Shown: in pieces, positions 5,489-9,884 of the stretch
How positions within the stretch are numbered: position 1 is the first letter of the stretch
Layout: each line of letters begins with the position of its first letter
Origin: a virus
Virus record (IMG/VR): IMGVR_UViG_3300030339_000006
Reading direction: 5' to 3' (one strand)
DNA length: 64,000 bases
Made by a program: the position numbers and the translations under genes
Notes under the pieces: generated by a model
The model's database searches: none
Seen by the model: the letters and a program-made list of their open reading frames with translations, nothing else
What the model was told of the DNA's origin: nothing

Positions 5489-5508
5489 AAAAAATCTCCA
5501 TTTAGGTA

Positions 5509-5537
5509 TTCAATATTTTAGAATACCTTGGTATAAT
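5509..5537 (+). promoter_or_regulatory. Sigma70-like / GGTATAA promoter of the ubiquitin-like operon; overlaps a divergent TAAAAT site for terL
   Basis: TTCAAT-N17-TATAAT with extended -10 TGn; ATTTTA (minus-strand TAAAAT) at 5515-5520. Confidence 0.65.
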
Positions 5538-5594
5538 GACTTTGGTGTAGATTACTACGCTAAAAACAAAAAACCTAAACTAAAGGAAAATCCA

Positions 5595-5792
5595 ATGTCT
5601 CAAGTAACTTCTACCGTAATCCACATCCCAGGCCGTGAAGCAACCACTCTGACCGGTATGGACGTAAAACTCGAAGACGCAACTCGTCAGTTCGACGCAG
5701 CATTCCAGACCTCCACTATGGACAAGCGTGAAGATATCGTTGACGGCGTACGTCACATTTACTTCAGCCGCCGTACTGGTACTAAAGGCTGA
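5595..5792 (+). CDS. Ubiquitin-like modifier (Prok_Ub / PRTRC protein C-like), 65 aa
   Basis: RBS AAGGA; MSQVTSTVIHIPG...HIYFSRRTGTKG; C-terminal GTKG as in PRTRC protein C; first gene of an E2-JAB-E1 operon. Confidence 0.8.
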   Translation: MSQVTSTVIHIPGREATTLTGMDVKLEDATRQFDAAFQTSTMDKREDIVDGVRHIYFSRRTGTKG

Positions 5793-5815
5793 TCCATTAG
5801 GGTCAGTTTCCAAAG

Positions 5816-5844
5816 AGGAGCCTTCGGGCTCCTTTTTCTTTTTT
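5816..5844 (+). terminator. Rho-independent terminator after the Ubl gene
   Basis: AGGAGCC-TTCG-GGCTCCT followed by a T tract. Confidence 0.85.
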
Positions 5845-5861
5845 AGTTGCTGGAGAACACC

Positions 5862-6896
5862 ATGTCAGCAATCAGTTCGTATCAAGGCTATTCCTCGTTA
5901 GCCGGTCAGAGTTACAGCCTGGAACTCGAAGAGATCTTAACGAGACTTCCCGAAATGTTCCAACGGCACGGCGTTAATATCGACGTCCTGGGTCACCGCC
6001 AAGTAACCCCTCTGCCAGGCGAAGAACCTCATCCTGAAGTCGTTTCCCAGATGGCCGGGCAGGATAACTCCGGGACACTCTCTACGATGCGTCAGGGAGT
6101 GGATAACCTTCGCAATATCTCTATGCGTATCAATGCAGCCGTCTTCGCTCAGTGGGCCCGACCGGTGCTTCCCCAGACCCGCCCCGTAGAAGCCGCTCTG
6201 CAGCGTATCGTACAGGGTACTGCCGGCCACCGTATGGATCCGTTCATGGATCTCATTATCAAGTTTTTACGCAAAGATATCAAGCACCCAATTCGTAACC
6301 TGCCGATCTTCGATGCGAGTATTGGCTTCGGGATGGGTGTTCCGACTAACCCTGCGTTTAGTGAAGCGATTGGGACACTCGGGGAAGTCTATTCGGTAGG
6401 CCCACGTCGAGCGTCCGGTACTGTCGTCGAAGATACACCGGTGATCCGCCGCTATCTTCGTTATCTTAACTACCTGGCCCGCCAAACCGGTATGCATGTG
6501 GTGTGGATGCCAACGTCCTTTGATACACATCCAGCGATACGGGCGGCAACGGTCTCCGTTCAGATGACGAACGGCCAACCTCGAATTCTCGGGGAACCTC
6601 AGCGTCTTCGAGGGTTGGCAGTCTACCTGCTCGGGGACTACCTTCGTTGGGCACCACTGTCCCGCTACGAGTTCCTTCAGCAGCCGGGACAGGTGATGCT
6701 CGAAGACCCAAACATGTCTTACGTGCCCATTCTTAATGCCCACCTGCCCTCGATTTCGGCAGCACTGTTAACGTTAGGAGCGTTCTCTCCATGCAAGATC
6801 TTCTACAAAGACTTCAGAGCGCAAACGAGCTCACGGCAAGCGGACCCATCGCCTTCGACCTCATCCACGCCAGACTCCGAGCAGATACCGTTCTAG
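5862..6896 (+). CDS. Hypothetical protein in the ubiquitin-like operon
   Basis: RBS GGAG before ATG 5862; no recognisable motif. Confidence 0.7.
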   Translation: MSAISSYQGYSSLAGQSYSLELEEILTRLPEMFQRHGVNIDVLGHRQVTPLPGEEPHPEVVSQMAGQDNSGTLSTMRQGVDNLRNISMRINAAVFAQWARPVLPQTRPVEAALQRIVQGTAGHRMDPFMDLIIKFLRKDIKHPIRNLPIFDASIGFGMGVPTNPAFSEAIGTLGEVYSVGPRRASGTVVEDTPVIRRYLRYLNYLARQTGMHVVWMPTSFDTHPAIRAATVSVQMTNGQPRILGEPQRLRGLAVYLLGDYLRWAPLSRYEFLQQPGQVMLEDPNMSYVPILNAHLPSISAALLTLGAFSPCKIFYKDFRAQTSSRQADPSPSTSSTPDSEQIPF

Positions 6897-7024
6897 AGTC
6901 GATGATGGTTTTGTCTAATCTTCGCGTTCAGATCACTCGCCAGGCACGTGGTAACAACATCCGTGAGCGTATGCCTGAATTCCATTCTTACCGTAACCTC
7001 AGAACGGGGAGCACTTTTATATGA
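6791..7024 (+). CDS. Small hypothetical protein coupled to E2
   Basis: RBS AGGAG; its stop overlaps the E2 start (ATGA). Confidence 0.5.
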   Translation: MQDLLQRLQSANELTASGPIAFDLIHARLRADTVLESMMVLSNLRVQITRQARGNNIRERMPEFHSYRNLRTGSTFI

Positions 7025-7755
7025 GCAGCGGTCTTAATATCACGATCTTCGACACGCACGTCCGTGTGCCGAACGGTACGGGATCTTTCAAGAACATCTC
7101 CCGTGCTGACTTCATTGAAGAGGTCAAGCGTATGGAGAGTAATGAACCCGCCCGGGCGACTGCCGGGACGGCGTTCCGTTTCCCTAATGAAGTACTGACG
7201 GCAGAAATCTCGCCGGCACAGTGCCGCTTGTTGATGTACTTCCCGGCGGCCAAGCGTACCGTGAAGCATATTCGAGGGGGTAATCGCAAAGCGGATTCCT
7301 ATGAGATCCCGTTCCCGGCGACGCTCATCCACGTTACGATGACGGCAGACGCAGCCGGCCGTTGGGTTCTCCAGCAGCCACGCTGGTACTGCACGGACAT
7401 GAACATCGATGAAGTCCCGAGCATCCGCGGTCTGGACTTCACTCCACGTAACCGTATCTGGCCACTTCCTTTCCCGAACCAGTATGGCGATGGCCGCATG
7501 TGTGTCGGTCAGAACAACTACAAGTCGCTCTACACGAACGACCTGCGTGGCATGAACGAACTGTTCTACGGCGTGTTGATCGATTCTGCGTTCAACGATG
7601 ACCTGGGCGTTCGTATCAACTTGAATATCAACCCGGATAAGTGGTTTGAGAAACTGTCAAGACTGGACGAATTCCCGTTCAAATACCTAAGCGGCTATGT
7701 TGGCCAATCCACTGTTGCAATCGATGATGAAGACGAGGAAGAAGATGAAGATTGA
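7021..7755 (+). CDS. Prokaryotic E2 conjugating enzyme (Prok-E2 family D / PRTRC protein B-like)
   Basis: IPFPATL...PLPFPNQYGDGRMCVG with a catalytic Cys, and SAFNDDL; acidic tail. Confidence 0.8.
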   Translation: MSSGLNITIFDTHVRVPNGTGSFKNISRADFIEEVKRMESNEPARATAGTAFRFPNEVLTAEISPAQCRLLMYFPAAKRTVKHIRGGNRKADSYEIPFPATLIHVTMTADAAGRWVLQQPRWYCTDMNIDEVPSIRGLDFTPRNRIWPLPFPNQYGDGRMCVGQNNYKSLYTNDLRGMNELFYGVLIDSAFNDDLGVRINLNINPDKWFEKLSRLDEFPFKYLSGYVGQSTVAIDDEDEEEDED

Positions 7756-8854
7756 TTTGATGCCATTCATGAGCGTGCTGGTTACTGAAGAAGCTTTCCT
7801 GGCCGCCACTCCTGAACTGCTCCAGACGCCGATCGTTAACGTCCTGGGCAATGACGGGCAAATGTACGTGTACTCTCGCTTCTCCCTCGGCCGCTCCATG
7901 CTGACGGCGTCGACCAAGACCACGCTGAGCAACGGTAAGCCTTCGATCCTGAAGGAAGAACTGCAGCCACTGGCCTTCGGTAACAAGATCCCTTCGGCTA
8001 TGCTGGACAAGATCCTGGCGTTCTTCAAAGAAGTCATGGAGATGACCGGCTCGTCTGGTAAGCATGGTGAATACGAAGCGATGGCACACATCGTGTGGAA
8101 CACTCGTACCAAGTCCTACCGTATCGCTATCCCTAAACAGAAAGTGTCCAAAGCGGCAGTGACGTACACCTGGGAACACGTTGACGAAGATTACGAAACG
8201 GTTATCTTCGACATCCACTCACATAACACCATGGATGCTTTCTTCTCCGGTACTGACGAAGCTGATGATCGCTCGTACATCGGTATTTCCGGTGTGGCCG
8301 GCCGTCTGAACACCGACGCTAAGCTGATCTGGCGCTTCAATGCCTTCAAGCAGAAAGTCAAAATGGAGTACGGTGACATCTTCGACGCCCCAGAGAAATC
8401 TGCGATGCCGGAAATGCAGGAGTGGATGGATAAGGTTACCATCCCACCGGCCTACGTTGCTCCGTCCTATGGCAATGGCTATTCGTACAAGCCGGGCGGT
8501 GCTGACCCAAAGTCGGAAACGCGTGTGTTCGGGGTTGCAAGGGACCGTGCGGGCATCGACGACCAATCATCTATTGAAGACAATCTGTTCTCTGGTAACG
8601 AAAGCTCTTGGTATGATAAAAACCGGGATTTTCCAGGGGCCGGGCTCGGGCTGGACGACTTAGCCGAAGACCTGGCCGATAAAGTCTGGAATGAAGAAGA
8701 CGATGAGTTGAACGCAGAAGTGGCTGCAGTACTGGCCAAGCGTGTCGTCGAAACAGAAACCCTCTATGACGCCGGCGTGTTCGTCGTGACTAACCGTGCG
8801 GAAGCCGCTGCGGCGATCGCTCGTCTGAACTCTGATTACACCATAGGACAATAA
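7745..8854 (+). CDS. JAB/MPN metallo-isopeptidase (PRTRC protein A-like)
   Basis: E(AMAHIVW)...DIHSHNTMDAFFSGTD = JAMM motif E-xn-HxH-x7-S-x2-D. Confidence 0.85.
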   Translation: MKIDLMPFMSVLVTEEAFLAATPELLQTPIVNVLGNDGQMYVYSRFSLGRSMLTASTKTTLSNGKPSILKEELQPLAFGNKIPSAMLDKILAFFKEVMEMTGSSGKHGEYEAMAHIVWNTRTKSYRIAIPKQKVSKAAVTYTWEHVDEDYETVIFDIHSHNTMDAFFSGTDEADDRSYIGISGVAGRLNTDAKLIWRFNAFKQKVKMEYGDIFDAPEKSAMPEMQEWMDKVTIPPAYVAPSYGNGYSYKPGGADPKSETRVFGVARDRAGIDDQSSIEDNLFSGNESSWYDKNRDFPGAGLGLDDLAEDLADKVWNEEDDELNAEVAAVLAKRVVETETLYDAGVFVVTNRAEAAAAIARLNSDYTIGQ

Positions 8855-8855
8855 G

Positions 8856-9884
8856 ATGTTTACAACCAGAACTGAACAGATCATGAACAACGTGATCGTC
8901 GTAGGTTGTGGTGGTACCGCGGGTCGCTTAATCCCACTGATCTCTCAGTTGATGAGCCGCGGTGCGTACCAGGATCTGTTCCCTACGATCACCCTGATCG
9001 ACGGGGATGAAGTCGAGGTGAAGAACCTCAATCGCCAAAACTTCATTGCTGAAGATGTCGGTCGTAACAAGGCGGAAGTTCTGGCTGAGCGTTATGGGAA
9101 TGCTTTCGAGATTCCTATCATCGCGATCCCACACTTCTATGAAAACAGTGGTGACCTGCGTTCCTGGTTAGTCAGTCGCCTGCCAGAAAACATGCGTCGT
9201 CTGGTAGTGGACCGTCCGTACACGATTTTCCTGTGTGTGGACAACATGGTCGCTCGTTTCAACATCATCTCTGGTGTCATTCAAGATACCCGGGCGACCG
9301 GCGTCATGAATACCATCATCGATGCAGGCAACGAGAACACCTATGGTCAGGTTCGCGTCTTCCACAGTCGTTTAACGGAAGATTGGACTGAGAGCACTGC
9401 TATCCTGGATCGTCTGGTCGGCGGGACGGAGAAGCTCGACATCCGTCTACCCTACATCCCGTGTCCGATCGGGGAGTATCTGGATGGCACCCTGTACAAG
9501 GGCAATCCGGATGCATCCTGTGCGGACTTGGAACAGACCGGTGCAGTGAATGCTCAGATGGCTACGGGCATGTTCACGATCTTCCAGAACATCTACATGA
9601 TGCTGCCGATCGGTGTCGAAACGTGGTTCTACGATATCCATAACGGCAACGACCAGACTCGTCTGGCTCGCTCGTGGATTGAAGATCTGCTGTACGGTAC
9701 GCGTTACAAAATCGGTGAACGTGCGAAGGACCTGGATAAGTACCCAGTGGATAAACGTGCGGTAACTTCACTGACCAGTACGGCTCAACTGTGGGATGTG
9801 GTTAAAACGAAAGTAGAAGAAGGGCTGAAGAAGGGGACACTTGAAAGAATGTCCCCTGAATTGGCTGAGGCCTTAGGACTCTAA
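8856..9884 (+). CDS. E1-like ThiF/MoeB family activating enzyme
   Basis: VVGCGGTAG, IDGDEVEVKNLNRQNF, GRNKA, CVDN, DAGN, ASC catalytic Cys. Confidence 0.9.
   Translation: MFTTRTEQIMNNVIVVGCGGTAGRLIPLISQLMSRGAYQDLFPTITLIDGDEVEVKNLNRQNFIAEDVGRNKAEVLAERYGNAFEIPIIAIPHFYENSGDLRSWLVSRLPENMRRLVVDRPYTIFLCVDNMVARFNIISGVIQDTRATGVMNTIIDAGNENTYGQVRVFHSRLTEDWTESTAILDRLVGGTEKLDIRLPYIPCPIGEYLDGTLYKGNPDASCADLEQTGAVNAQMATGMFTIFQNIYMMLPIGVETWFYDIHNGNDQTRLARSWIEDLLYGTRYKIGERAKDLDKYPVDKRAVTSLTSTAQLWDVVKTKVEEGLKKGTLERMSPELAEALGL

What the first reader, a model, noticed from the sequence alone, without database searches (positions are those of the whole stretch)
5509..9884. Complete phage-encoded ubiquitin-like conjugation system (Ubl-X-Y-E2-JAB-E1)
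Seen: a promoter, a 65 aa protein ending TGTKG, two unknown ORFs, an E2 (PNQYGDGRMC), a JAB peptidase (HSH-x7-S-x2-D) and a ThiF E1, with catalytic residues apparently intact. Established: this gene set matches PRTRC-type / Prok_Ub-E2D-JAB-ThiF operons, whose targets are to my knowledge unknown; related bacterial Ubl-E1-E2 systems act in antiphage defence. Inference: a lytic phage conjugates its own Ubl to host or phage proteins (counter-defence or host takeover). No ParB gene is adjacent. The Ubl already ends in Gly, so JAB would act as a deconjugase rather than a maturase.
Basis: partly seen in the sequence, partly recalled or inferred. Interest (0 to 1): 0.9.

Follow-up and report, generated by a model that had tools for sequence, protein, structure and literature searches.

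The report
Phage-encoded ubiquitin-like tagging operon
A 176-kb peat-soil phage related to Salmonella phage Arash carries an intact six-gene kit (ubiquitin-like tag, activating enzyme, carrier enzyme, trimming protease, two unknown partners), switched on with its DNA-replication genes; such kits have been studied only as bacterial anti-phage defences, and what this one tags is unknown.

Summary
The operon is Ubl (65 aa, ends TGTKG), X, Y, E2, JAB, E1, with all catalytic motifs intact.

The Ubl models as a beta-grasp (pLDDT 89). Relatives encode it as 1, 2, 3 or 5 head-to-tail copies, each ending (R/K)TGTKG, like polyubiquitin. So the JAB is a maturase in the family, not only a deconjugase.

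The operon is a syntenic hallmark of the Arash-like lineage, beside the terminase gene. All six genes are under purifying selection (dN/dS 0.08-0.24).

It is closest to the uncharacterised PRTRC / "6d" class, but scores below every PRTRC cut-off and has no ParB. It matches no PHROG. No Ubl, X, Y, E2 or JAB match in PADLOC.

Three points appear new here:
- The operon uses the phage's TGGTATAAG promoter class (17 sites on one strand, 0 on the other), shared with DNA polymerase and helicase genes.
- A conserved terminator follows the Ubl gene.
- X, Y and E2 show 2-8 times the synonymous divergence of flanking genes, suggesting allele swapping.

The target is unknown. Host takeover or counter-defence is favoured but not shown.

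This scan had already reported the same operon family in three related genomes (e1-5713159, e1-3481011, e1-5815028). I found no paper describing it.

The parts
5505..5527 (.). Palindrome GGTATTC-N9-GAATACC between the divergent terminase and Ubl promoters. It may be an operator, or it may overlap the terminase late promoter (TAAAATAT on the minus strand).
   Evidence: Read. Kept in close relatives; L012 has a different sequence that is still palindromic.
5529..5537 (+). Promoter element TGGTATAAT, followed by GGTGTAGA. It belongs to the phage's TGGTATAAG promoter class.
   Evidence: 17 sites on this strand and 0 on the other in 176 kb. The class also drives DNA pol A, a DinG-like helicase and a P22 AR_N protein. 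The motif is kept upstream of the Ubl gene in 10 of 11 relatives.
5595..5792 (+). Ubiquitin-like modifier, 65 aa, ending RRTGTKG-stop with a free C-terminal Gly.
5812..5846 (+). Intrinsic terminator or attenuator: 11-bp GC-rich stem plus a T-run, between the Ubl gene and X.
   Evidence: A hairpin plus T-run is kept at this position in 10 of 11 relatives.
5862..6896 (+). X, 344 aa, function unknown. It is specific to this lineage and has the lowest amino-acid identity to relatives of the six genes; candidate specificity factor.
   Evidence: No hit in Pfam, NCBIfam, PHROGs or PADLOC. Only 10 cluster representatives among 1.84 billion. 29-34% identity where TerL is 83-89%. dN/dS 0.15-0.21. AF2 model pLDDT 50, not usable.
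6791..7024 (+). Y, 77 aa, function unknown. It overlaps the 3' end of X in the -1 frame and has a conserved [FY][IV]-COOH end.
   Evidence: Conserved RBS, ATG and MQDLLQ start. C-terminal motif also in analogues from bacterial operons. dN/dS 0.16-0.20.
7021..7755 (+). E2-like conjugating enzyme (Prok-E2_D-like), catalytic Cys161 in FPNQYGDGRMC.
   Evidence: Pfam Prok-E2_D E=0.0067, 16.6 bits, below the cut-off of 25. Homologue L014 scores 39.7 bits. The family profile hits bacterial Prok-E2_D proteins. Cys is invariant in 20 sequences.
7724..8854 (+). JAB/JAMM metallopeptidase with an N-terminal domain, an acidic linker and a small C-terminal domain. Start uncertain (7697, 7724 or 7745).
   Evidence: Prok-JAB 3.6e-8. 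PRTRC_A 67.1 bits against a cut-off of 101.8. E111, HxH, S and D are invariant.
8856..9884 (+). Single-domain ThiF-type E1 with a phage-specific C-terminal extension of about 80 aa. Candidate catalytic Cys222.
   Evidence: ThiF 1.4e-13. PRTRC_ThiF 57.7 bits against a cut-off of 144.75. Invariant adenylation motifs. The SCAD/E Cys is kept in all phage and bacterial relatives.

Best explanation
This is a working ubiquitin-like protein-conjugation pathway encoded by a lytic-type phage.

Shown from sequence and comparison:
- The Ubl gene is transcribed from an early/middle-class phage promoter.
- It is followed by a leaky terminator, so the tag should be made in excess over the five downstream proteins.
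- In relatives the tag is made as a 2-5-copy polyprotein, or carries a short C-terminal tail.

Inferred from the families involved:
- The JAB peptidase cuts after TGTKG to expose the C-terminal Gly, and probably also removes the tag from targets.
- The homodimeric ThiF-type E1 adenylates Gly65 and takes the tag onto Cys222 as a thioester.
- The tag passes to Cys161 of the E2 and then to lysines of target proteins.
- X and Y, which diverge and are swapped together with E2, act as specificity or adaptor subunits in place of an E3.

Biological role, inferred and about 45% likely: tagging of host proteins, including defence factors, early in infection to take over or disarm the cell. This would parallel the way T7 kinase uses phosphorylation.
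For: Parts and motifs:
- All four enzyme and tag families are present with invariant catalytic residues.
- The Ubl models as a beta-grasp.

The C-terminal Gly is the reactive end:
- (R/K)TGTKG is kept at the end of every repeat in 1-, 2-, 3- and 5-copy Ubl genes.
- Some carry extra residues after the last Gly: ND, A, INYSK.

All six genes are functional:
- Synteny is conserved across at least 12 phages, down to 48% TerL identity.
- dN/dS is 0.08-0.24 for every gene.

Regulation:
- The promoter class is shared with DNA pol A and a helicase.
- The terminator after the Ubl gene is conserved.

Conflict-type evolution:
- X, Y and E2 evolve fastest and have 2-8 times the flanking dS.
- In Vibrio phage D69 the operon follows a run of small genes that includes an annotated RecBCD inhibitor.

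The genome has no sulfur-relay partner genes.
Against: - No biochemical or expression data exist for this phage; no RNA run was listed.
- A profile of the E2 family finds nothing in the PDB.
- X could not be modelled, so its adaptor role is a guess.
- A strictly conserved position inside the structural gene block is unusual for an anti-defence module. Together with detection of operon proteins in an Arash particle preparation (PMC10585845), it fits a role in virion biogenesis equally well.
- The TGGTATAAG class is assigned to early/middle only from the genes it drives.
Confidence: 0.75

Rival explanations
1. Virion biogenesis role. The phage tags its own structural or packaged proteins, for example head, internal or ejection proteins, as part of assembly or to arm the particle.
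For: - The operon sits in a fixed position between the terminase gene and conserved particle-associated genes throughout the lineage.
- It is a core gene set, not a sporadic one.
- A high tag dosage (own promoter plus attenuator, poly-Ubl genes) suits abundant targets.
- The GenBank record of Arash labels the E1 and E2 'structural protein' from particle mass spectrometry (PMC10585845).
Against: - The operon is on the opposite strand to the structural genes. It uses the promoter class of the replication genes, not the late motif.
- The Arash particle preparation listed 116 proteins, including ribonucleotide reductases and kinases, so it is not specific for packaged proteins.
- X, Y and E2 evolve far faster than the neighbouring structural genes.
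Confidence: 0.25
2. Inter-phage competition or superinfection exclusion. Like bacterial Bil, the system tags proteins of a co-infecting rival phage.
For: [quoted passage not shown]
- The fast evolution and allele swapping of X-Y-E2 would suit changing rival targets.
Against: - No sequence relation to Bil beyond the shared folds; PADLOC gives no hit for the Ubl, E2 or JAB.
- The E1 is a 342-aa single domain, not the multidomain BilD.
- Strict conservation in every lineage member and a lytic-type genome argue for a function in the phage's own cycle.
Confidence: 0.1
3. Sulfur-carrier system. The small protein is only thiocarboxylated by the E1 (as with ThiS, MoaD or TtuB) to supply sulfur for a nucleic-acid or cofactor modification.
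For: - The E1 is a single-domain ThiF/MoeB-type enzyme.
- MoaD is among the structural matches of the Ubl.
Against: - An E2 with an invariant Cys and a JAB peptidase are kept in all members.
- Polyprotein precursors point to a consumable protein tag.
- The phage genome has no rhodanese, cysteine desulfurase or TtuA-type PP-loop ATPase.
Confidence: 0.05

Closest known systems
PRTRC cassette (NCBIfam TIGR03734-03742), which appears to be operon class '6d' of Iyer, Burroughs and Aravind 2006 (PMC1779556); Pfam Prok_Ub / Prok-E2_D / Prok-JAB
   Same: - A small Ubl with a C-terminal Gly.
- An E2 lacking the classical HPN histidine.
- A JAB with an N-terminal extra domain.
- A single-domain ThiF-type E1.
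- Extra fast-diverging small proteins.
- The best NCBIfam hits of the JAB and E1 are PRTRC_A and PRTRC_ThiF. Relatives' E2s hit PRTRC_B and Prok-E2_D.
- I found no experimental characterisation of PRTRC function in the papers I could search.
   Different: - All scores are below the curated cut-offs.
- No ParB, and no match to PRTRC C, D, E or F.
- The conserved His after the E2 Cys described for 6d is absent.
- The compact gene order Ubl-X-Y-E2-JAB-E1, the poly-Ubl precursors, and the fixed place in a lytic phage lineage rather than plasmids or ICEs.
Bil (BilABCD, types I and II) anti-phage systems (PMC10557695; 10.1101/2023.09.04.556158)
   Same: - Gene order Ubl-E2-JAB-E1.
- Thioester-type Cys in the E1 and E2.
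- The JAB trims residues after the conserved Gly.
- The Ubl is attached to proteins during infection.
   Different: - Bil is a host defence. Its E1 is multidomain (IAD, AAD, CYS), and its multi-domain Ubls are not described there as cleaved precursors.
- The phage proteins have no PADLOC hit.
- The phage operon has two extra genes.
Bub pathways ('6E'; PMC11601596, PMC11601603)
   Same: - A bacterial E1-E2-Ubl-peptidase operon.
- The JAB cleaves a precursor to free the Ubl.
- The biological role is still unknown.
   Different: - Bub works through Tyr and Ser oxyesters and lacks catalytic cysteines; the phage E1 and E2 keep invariant cysteines.
- No BubE/DUF6527 protease here.
Eukaryotic polyubiquitin genes
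   Same: Head-to-tail tag copies, each ending in the reactive Gly, sometimes with an extra C-terminal residue. They need a deubiquitinase to release monomers.
   Different: - No sequence relation.
- Repeats can be separated by linkers of up to about 50 residues.
- This window's phage has a single copy.
Lambda and T1 tail assembly proteins I (Ubl) and K (JAB + NlpC), per Iyer et al. 2006
   Same: A phage-encoded Ubl paired with a JAB peptidase.
   Different: That pair has no E1 or E2, so no conjugation cascade.

Membership tests
PRTRC system (NCBIfam) | JAB protein reaches the PRTRC_A (TIGR03735) cut-off of 101.8 bits | tested here: not met
   67.1 bits, E 1.4e-18, C-terminal half of the model only.
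PRTRC system (NCBIfam) | E1 reaches the PRTRC_ThiF (TIGR03736) cut-off of 144.75 bits | tested here: not met
   57.7 bits. The best relative, L047, scores 126.6 bits.
PRTRC system (NCBIfam) | Proteins B, C, D, E and F are present | tested here: not met
   The window's Ubl, X, Y and E2 give no NCBIfam hit at E<=0.1. Relatives' E2s give PRTRC_B at 14-30 bits against a cut-off of 131.
PRTRC system (NCBIfam) | Associated ParB-family protein | tested here: not met
   No ParB_N (PF02195) in the 176-kb genome. The control search rings in 11 of 14 genomes.
Operon class 6d (Iyer et al. 2006) | Small beta-grasp protein with a conserved C-terminal Gly | tested here: met
Operon class 6d (Iyer et al. 2006) | E2-like protein without the classical His but with an absolutely conserved His C-terminal to the Cys | tested here: not met
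   FPN replaces HPN. No invariant His follows Cys161, and the window has Gly where some relatives have His.
Operon class 6d (Iyer et al. 2006) | JAB with an N-terminal alpha+beta domain bearing a conserved Arg and Trp | tested here: inconclusive
   An N-terminal domain exists, and R50 and W118 are invariant in 5 sequences. I could not align it to the published JAB-N.
Operon class 6d (Iyer et al. 2006) | Rapidly diverging alpha-helical partner protein | tested here: inconclusive
   X and Y both diverge fast. The X model is low-confidence alpha+beta. Equivalence is not shown.
Pfam Prok-E2_D (PF14460) | Gathering score of 25 bits | tested here: inconclusive
   The window protein scores 16.6 bits. 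Its homologue L014 scores 39.7 bits. The family profile A7 hits L018's E2, which scores 28.8 bits on PF14460.
JAMM/MPN+ metallopeptidases | E...HxH-x7-S-x2-D zinc and catalytic motif | tested here: met
   E111, H158, H160, S168 and D171 are invariant. Prok-JAB scores 33.7 bits, above the cut-off of 25.
E1 / ThiF-MoeB adenylating enzymes | Nucleotide-binding GxGxxG, an Arg finger, a Mg-binding Asp, and a conserved Cys after the adenylation core | tested here: met
   ThiF scores 51 bits, above the cut-off of 28.1. Invariant residues. Thioester formation itself cannot be tested here.
Bil (BilABCD) | Multidomain E1 (IAD, AAD, CYS) and matches to defence-system models | tested here: not met
   The E1 is a 342-aa single domain. 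PADLOC gives no hit for the Ubl, E2 or JAB, and only weak Cap2-type hits on the E1 nucleotide-binding part.

The most novel reading that the evidence does not exclude
A whole lineage of large lytic phages, with cultured members on Salmonella and probably Vibrio (Vibrio phages from an oyster/seawater source), runs its own ubiquitin-like conjugation cascade from polyubiquitin-like precursors. It would tag host proteins early in infection, as a broad post-translational takeover or anti-defence weapon whose swappable X-Y-E2 module sets the targets. That would be, as far as I could find, the first virus-side counterpart of bacterial Bil and CBASS ubiquitin-like immunity.
Probability: 0.4. Interest if true: 0.9.

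Novelty: new variant of a known kind. Interest (0 to 1): 0.75.

Why it matters
Ubiquitin-like conjugation in bacteria has been characterised, in the papers I read, only as host immunity (CBASS Cap2/Cap3, Bil) or as orphan pathways (Bub). I found no functional study of the PRTRC/6d class.

Here the same chemistry sits on the virus side, as a fixed part of a phage lineage with precursor genes built like polyubiquitin.

The lineage includes cultured phages: Arash on Salmonella Typhimurium ATCC 14028, and Vibrio phages D69, D148 and D181. Conjugates, targets and knockout phenotypes can therefore be tested directly.

Their annotations hide the system. All the genes are labelled 'hypothetical' or 'structural', and the Arash Ubl gene is called in the wrong frame.

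Finding the targets would show either a new counter-defence or takeover strategy, or a new step in virion biogenesis. It would also give a first function for a PRTRC-like system.

Tried and rejected
- **X-Y as a -1 frameshift fusion.** Considered because Y is in the -1 frame and its conservation starts inside X. Rejected: Y has its own conserved RBS, ATG and MQDLLQ start, and the X tail beyond the overlap is not conserved.
- **Structure of X.** AF2 on a 12-sequence alignment gave pLDDT 50.5, so no fold search was run.
- **ESM Atlas.** X had no usable hit. Y had only unnamed clusters.
- **X profile against 1.84 billion representatives.** 10 hits, all matching most of the profile with similar lengths, so apparently this same family; no remote relatives found.
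- **E2 family profile against PDB sequences.** No match.
- **Foldseek of the Ubl model.** Only weak rows, with protein L and GB1 on top. VIA-align gave the clearer beta-grasp list.
- **PHROGs.** None of the six proteins, nor four neighbours, match.
- **PADLOC.** Only weak generic E1 hits.
- **Sequencing runs.** No RNA holder listed.
- **Metagenome scan with X.** It found nothing.
- **Arash mass-spectrometry table.** The numbering of the published table (Gp246-251) could not be reconciled with the GenBank gp numbers. It is used only as evidence of expression.
- **Literature.** Seven full-text searches found no description of a phage-encoded system of this kind. The library is not complete.


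Full report
**Where the window comes from**

The window is the minus strand of positions 91480-155479 of a 176,021-bp virus record that CheckV rates complete. Sequencing runs that hold the stretch are almost all peat metagenomes.

The nearest cultured relative is Salmonella phage Arash (OQ632216, 180.8 kb), with 55% identity in the E1. Further relatives are Vibrio phages D69, D148 and D181, and about ten IMG/VR contigs of 100-190 kb.

**Checking the observation**

- **Ubl (5595-5792).** 65 aa, ending RRTGTKG-stop.
- **X.** It most likely starts at the ATG at 5862, which has a GGAG 6 nt upstream, and ends at 6896.
- **Y (6791-7024).** 77 aa, in the -1 frame relative to X, overlapping X's last 106 nt. 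I considered a frameshift fusion. I rejected it because Y's RBS, its ATG and its MQDLLQ start are conserved in relatives, while the X tail beyond the overlap is not.
- **E2 (7021-7755).** It carries LPFPNQYGDGRMCVG. Cys161 is invariant in 20 homologues.
- **JAB.** The start is 7697, 7724 or 7745; the gene ends at 8854. The whole JAMM motif is invariant: E111, H158-x-H160, S168, D171.
- **E1 (8856-9884).** The adenylation motifs are invariant. Cys222 in SCAD/E is conserved in every phage and bacterial relative I aligned.
- **ParB.** No ParB_N domain exists anywhere in the genome.

**Is the small protein a ubiquitin-like modifier?**

An AlphaFold2 model built on 15 repeats has mean pLDDT 89.1. 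Its order is beta-beta-alpha-beta-beta, with a flexible tail.

- Foldseek gave only weak rows, headed by protein L and GB1.
- One relative repeat hits Pfam Prok_Ub at E=0.0041.

The strongest argument is comparative. The gene holds a different number of Ubl copies in different phages:

| Copies | Where |
|---|---|
| 1 | this window, Arash, L008-L011 |
| 2 | L003, L004, L012 |
| 3 | Vibrio phage D69 |
| 5 | L013 |

Every copy ends (R/K)TGTKG, although the linkers between copies vary. Some genes carry extra residues after the last Gly: ND, A, or INYSK.

Internal repeats would have no reason to keep the tail unless each is released. These are therefore polyubiquitin-like precursors, and the Gly carboxylate is the reactive end. 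The JAB is the only peptidase in the operon, so it is the likely maturase in the family as well as a likely deconjugase.

**The enzymes and their family**

- The JAB scores Prok-JAB 3.6e-8 and PRTRC_A 67.1 bits.
- The E1 scores ThiF 1.4e-13 and PRTRC_ThiF 57.7 bits.
- The window's E2 reaches only 16.6 bits on Prok-E2_D, below the cut-off of 25.
- Its homologue in L014 reaches 39.7 bits.
- A profile of the phage E2 family also finds bacterial proteins, one of which passes the Pfam cut-off.
The E2 fold therefore rests on profile evidence plus the UBC-like (F)PN...G-x-x-M-C motif.

All PRTRC scores are below NCBI's curated cut-offs, and X and Y match no PRTRC protein.

Iyer, Burroughs and Aravind's class 6d is the best literature match (PMC1779556). 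That class has a Ubl, a JAB with an N-terminal domain, an E1, an E2 without the classical His, and a fast-diverging helical protein. However, its 'absolutely conserved His after the Cys' is not present here.

The system is unlike the other characterised families:
- Bil has a multidomain E1 (PMC10557695), and only the E1 of this operon has weak PADLOC hits.
- Bub works through oxyesters without cysteines (PMC11601596).

None of the six proteins matches any PHROG.

**X and Y**

X has no family hit. Its model was unusable (pLDDT 50.5). A profile search of 1.84 billion representatives found only 10 clusters, all apparently of this same family.

Y is a real gene, with dN/dS of 0.16-0.20 in its non-overlapping part. 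It ends in [FY][IV]-COOH in all phages. The small proteins at the equivalent place in three bacterial operons end the same way. I have no explanation for this motif.

**Distribution**

Among 50,697 GenBank phage records, only Arash and the three Vibrio phages carry the E2. There the genes are annotated as 'hypothetical' or 'structural'. The Arash Ubl gene (gp251c) is called in the wrong reading frame.

Within the lineage the operon keeps one place, divergent from the large terminase gene and upstream of three conserved minus-strand genes. This holds even in L014, whose TerL is only 48% identical.

Bacterial relatives fall into two layouts:
- **Split layout.** JAB-E1 with the E2 3-6 kb downstream, common in Oscillospiraceae. 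The one locus I annotated (L018) lies next to DNA pol III beta, MoxR, VWA, radical SAM and methyltransferase genes, which may be a mobile element.
- **Compact layout.** Ubl-small protein-200-aa protein-E2-JAB-E1, in chromosomes of two delta-proteobacterial MAGs.

**Regulation**

The sequence TGGTATAAT at 5529-5537 belongs to a motif, TGGTATAA(T/G).A..GTGtA.A. It occurs 17 times on this strand of the genome and never on the other; about 1.3 per strand would be expected by chance. Each of the 16 sites with a called ORF lies 23-114 nt before its ATG (15 within 57 nt); one site has no ORF within 200 nt.

The genes it precedes include DNA polymerase A, a DinG-like helicase, a P22 AR_N-domain protein and many small ORFs. 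The structural genes lie on the other strand.

The Ubl operon is therefore co-regulated with the non-structural, early/middle gene class, although it is embedded in the morphogenesis block. The motif is kept upstream of the Ubl gene in 10 of 11 relatives.

Directly after the Ubl stop codon lies an 11-bp GC-rich hairpin with a T-run, at 5812-5846. A hairpin and T-run hold this position in 10 of 11 relatives. In L014 a second TGGTATAAG follows it. This predicts much more tag than enzymes. Poly-Ubl genes in relatives achieve the same end by another route.

**Evolution**

Against the six closest relatives, amino-acid identity falls in this order:

| Gene | Identity to window (%) |
|---|---|
| TerL | 83-89 |
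| d289 | 73-76 |
| Ubl | 62-74 |
| E1 | 55-60 |
| JAB | 46-49 |
| E2 | 43-48 |
| Y | 36-45 |
| X | 29-34 |

In three close pairs, Nei-Gojobori dN/dS is 0.08-0.24 for all six operon genes, against 0.03-0.08 for TerL. All six are therefore constrained.

Synonymous divergence of X, Y and E2 is 2-8 times that of the flanks. In the pair L010-L011, dS is 0.15 for TerL, 1.26 for X, 1.04 for E2 and 0.11 for d289. I read this as replacement of the X-Y-E2 part by recombination with divergent alleles. That behaviour is typical of loci in conflict, and it suggests these three proteins form one functional, probably target-defining, unit.

**Mechanism and role**

The chemistry follows from the families involved and is inferred, not shown:
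1. The JAB matures the precursor.
2. The E1 adenylates the C-terminal Gly and forms a Cys222 thioester.
3. The tag is transferred to E2 Cys161.
4. It is then attached to target lysines.
5. The JAB reverses the modification.

For the biological role I favour tagging of host proteins for takeover or counter-defence, at about 45%. The reasons are:
- the early/middle promoter class;
- the conflict-like evolution of X-Y-E2;
- the small-gene neighbourhood with an annotated RecBCD inhibitor in phage D69;
- the precedent of a phage using a broad protein modification against defences (T7 kinase, PMC13645617, seen).

The main rival, at about 25%, is modification of the phage's own particle proteins. It is supported by the fixed place in the structural block, the core conservation, the high tag dosage, and the detection of operon proteins in an Arash particle preparation. 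That preparation, however, listed 116 proteins, including ribonucleotide reductases (PMC10585845).

Exclusion of rival phages is given about 10%. A sulfur-carrier role is given about 5%; the genome has no rhodanese, desulfurase or TtuA-type gene.

**Novelty**

Seven full-text literature searches found no description of this system in phages and no functional study of PRTRC.

This scan had already reported the same operon family in three related genomes (e1-5713159, e1-3481011, e1-5815028). It had also reported other kinds of phage Ubl cassettes elsewhere. My reading agrees with those reports.

- the promoter class;
- the attenuator after the Ubl gene;
- the 1-to-5 copy series of the Ubl gene;
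- the universally conserved E1 cysteine;
- the selection and recombination pattern;
- the lineage-restricted nature of X;
- the compact chromosomal versions in delta-proteobacteria;
- the annotation errors in the cultured phages.

I class it as a new variant of a known kind.

Noticed in passing
whole genome G000; in the window at 5529, 15826, 55859, 56482, 60477: A phage promoter class, TGGTATAA(T/G).A..GTGtA.A, occurs 17 times on one strand and 0 on the other. Most sites lie 23-57 nt before an ATG. It drives DNA pol A, a DinG-like helicase, a P22 AR_N protein and many small ORFs, and has no conserved -35 element.
   Followed up: partly
L001:102-320 (Salmonella phage Arash gp251c): The annotated CDS is in the wrong frame. 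The true Ubl ORF is L001:107-307 (66 aa, ending RRTGTKG). Y (gp249c) is also annotated with a start that is too late: conservation begins at L001:1277, not 1340.
   Followed up: yes
L002:5965-6954 (Vibrio phage D69): The E1 frame is open from 5965, but has no ATG, GTG or TTG before 6199. The annotated 251-aa product therefore lacks the GxGxxG motif. The cause could be a rare start codon, coupling to the JAB gene, or a sequencing error.
   Followed up: no
L013:6445-6990: An HNH/AP2-domain homing-endonuclease gene is inserted between the JAB and E1 genes of the penta-Ubl phage.
   Followed up: partly
window 5505-5527: A palindrome, GGTATTC-N9-GAATACC, lies between the terminase and Ubl promoters. 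It is conserved in close relatives and replaced by a different palindrome in L012. Its centre reads TAAAATAT on the minus strand, resembling the late-gene motif noted by another reader.
   Followed up: partly
L003/L004, L008/L009, L010/L011 operon regions: Synonymous divergence of X, Y and E2 is 2-8 times that of the flanking TerL and d289 genes in all three close pairs. This suggests recombinational allele replacement of this part of the operon.
   Followed up: partly
window 6791-7024 and Y analogues (L047:5401-5694, L072:4721-5074, L021:175-480): Y-type proteins end in [FY][IV]-COOH in all phages and in the bacterial compact operons. The meaning is unknown; it might be a C-terminal docking motif.
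   Followed up: no
L047, L072 (delta-proteobacterial MAGs): Compact operons Ubl(ends AGTKG)-small protein-200-aa protein-E2-JAB-E1 lie in chromosomal contexts, next to caspase-domain, cNMP-binding and M14 carboxypeptidase genes. These are bacterial cousins of the phage operon, also below the PRTRC cut-offs.
   Followed up: partly
L014:2802-3003: In this distant relative, the terminator after the Ubl gene is followed by a second TGGTATAAG promoter in front of X. The tag and the enzymes would then be separate transcription units.
   Followed up: no
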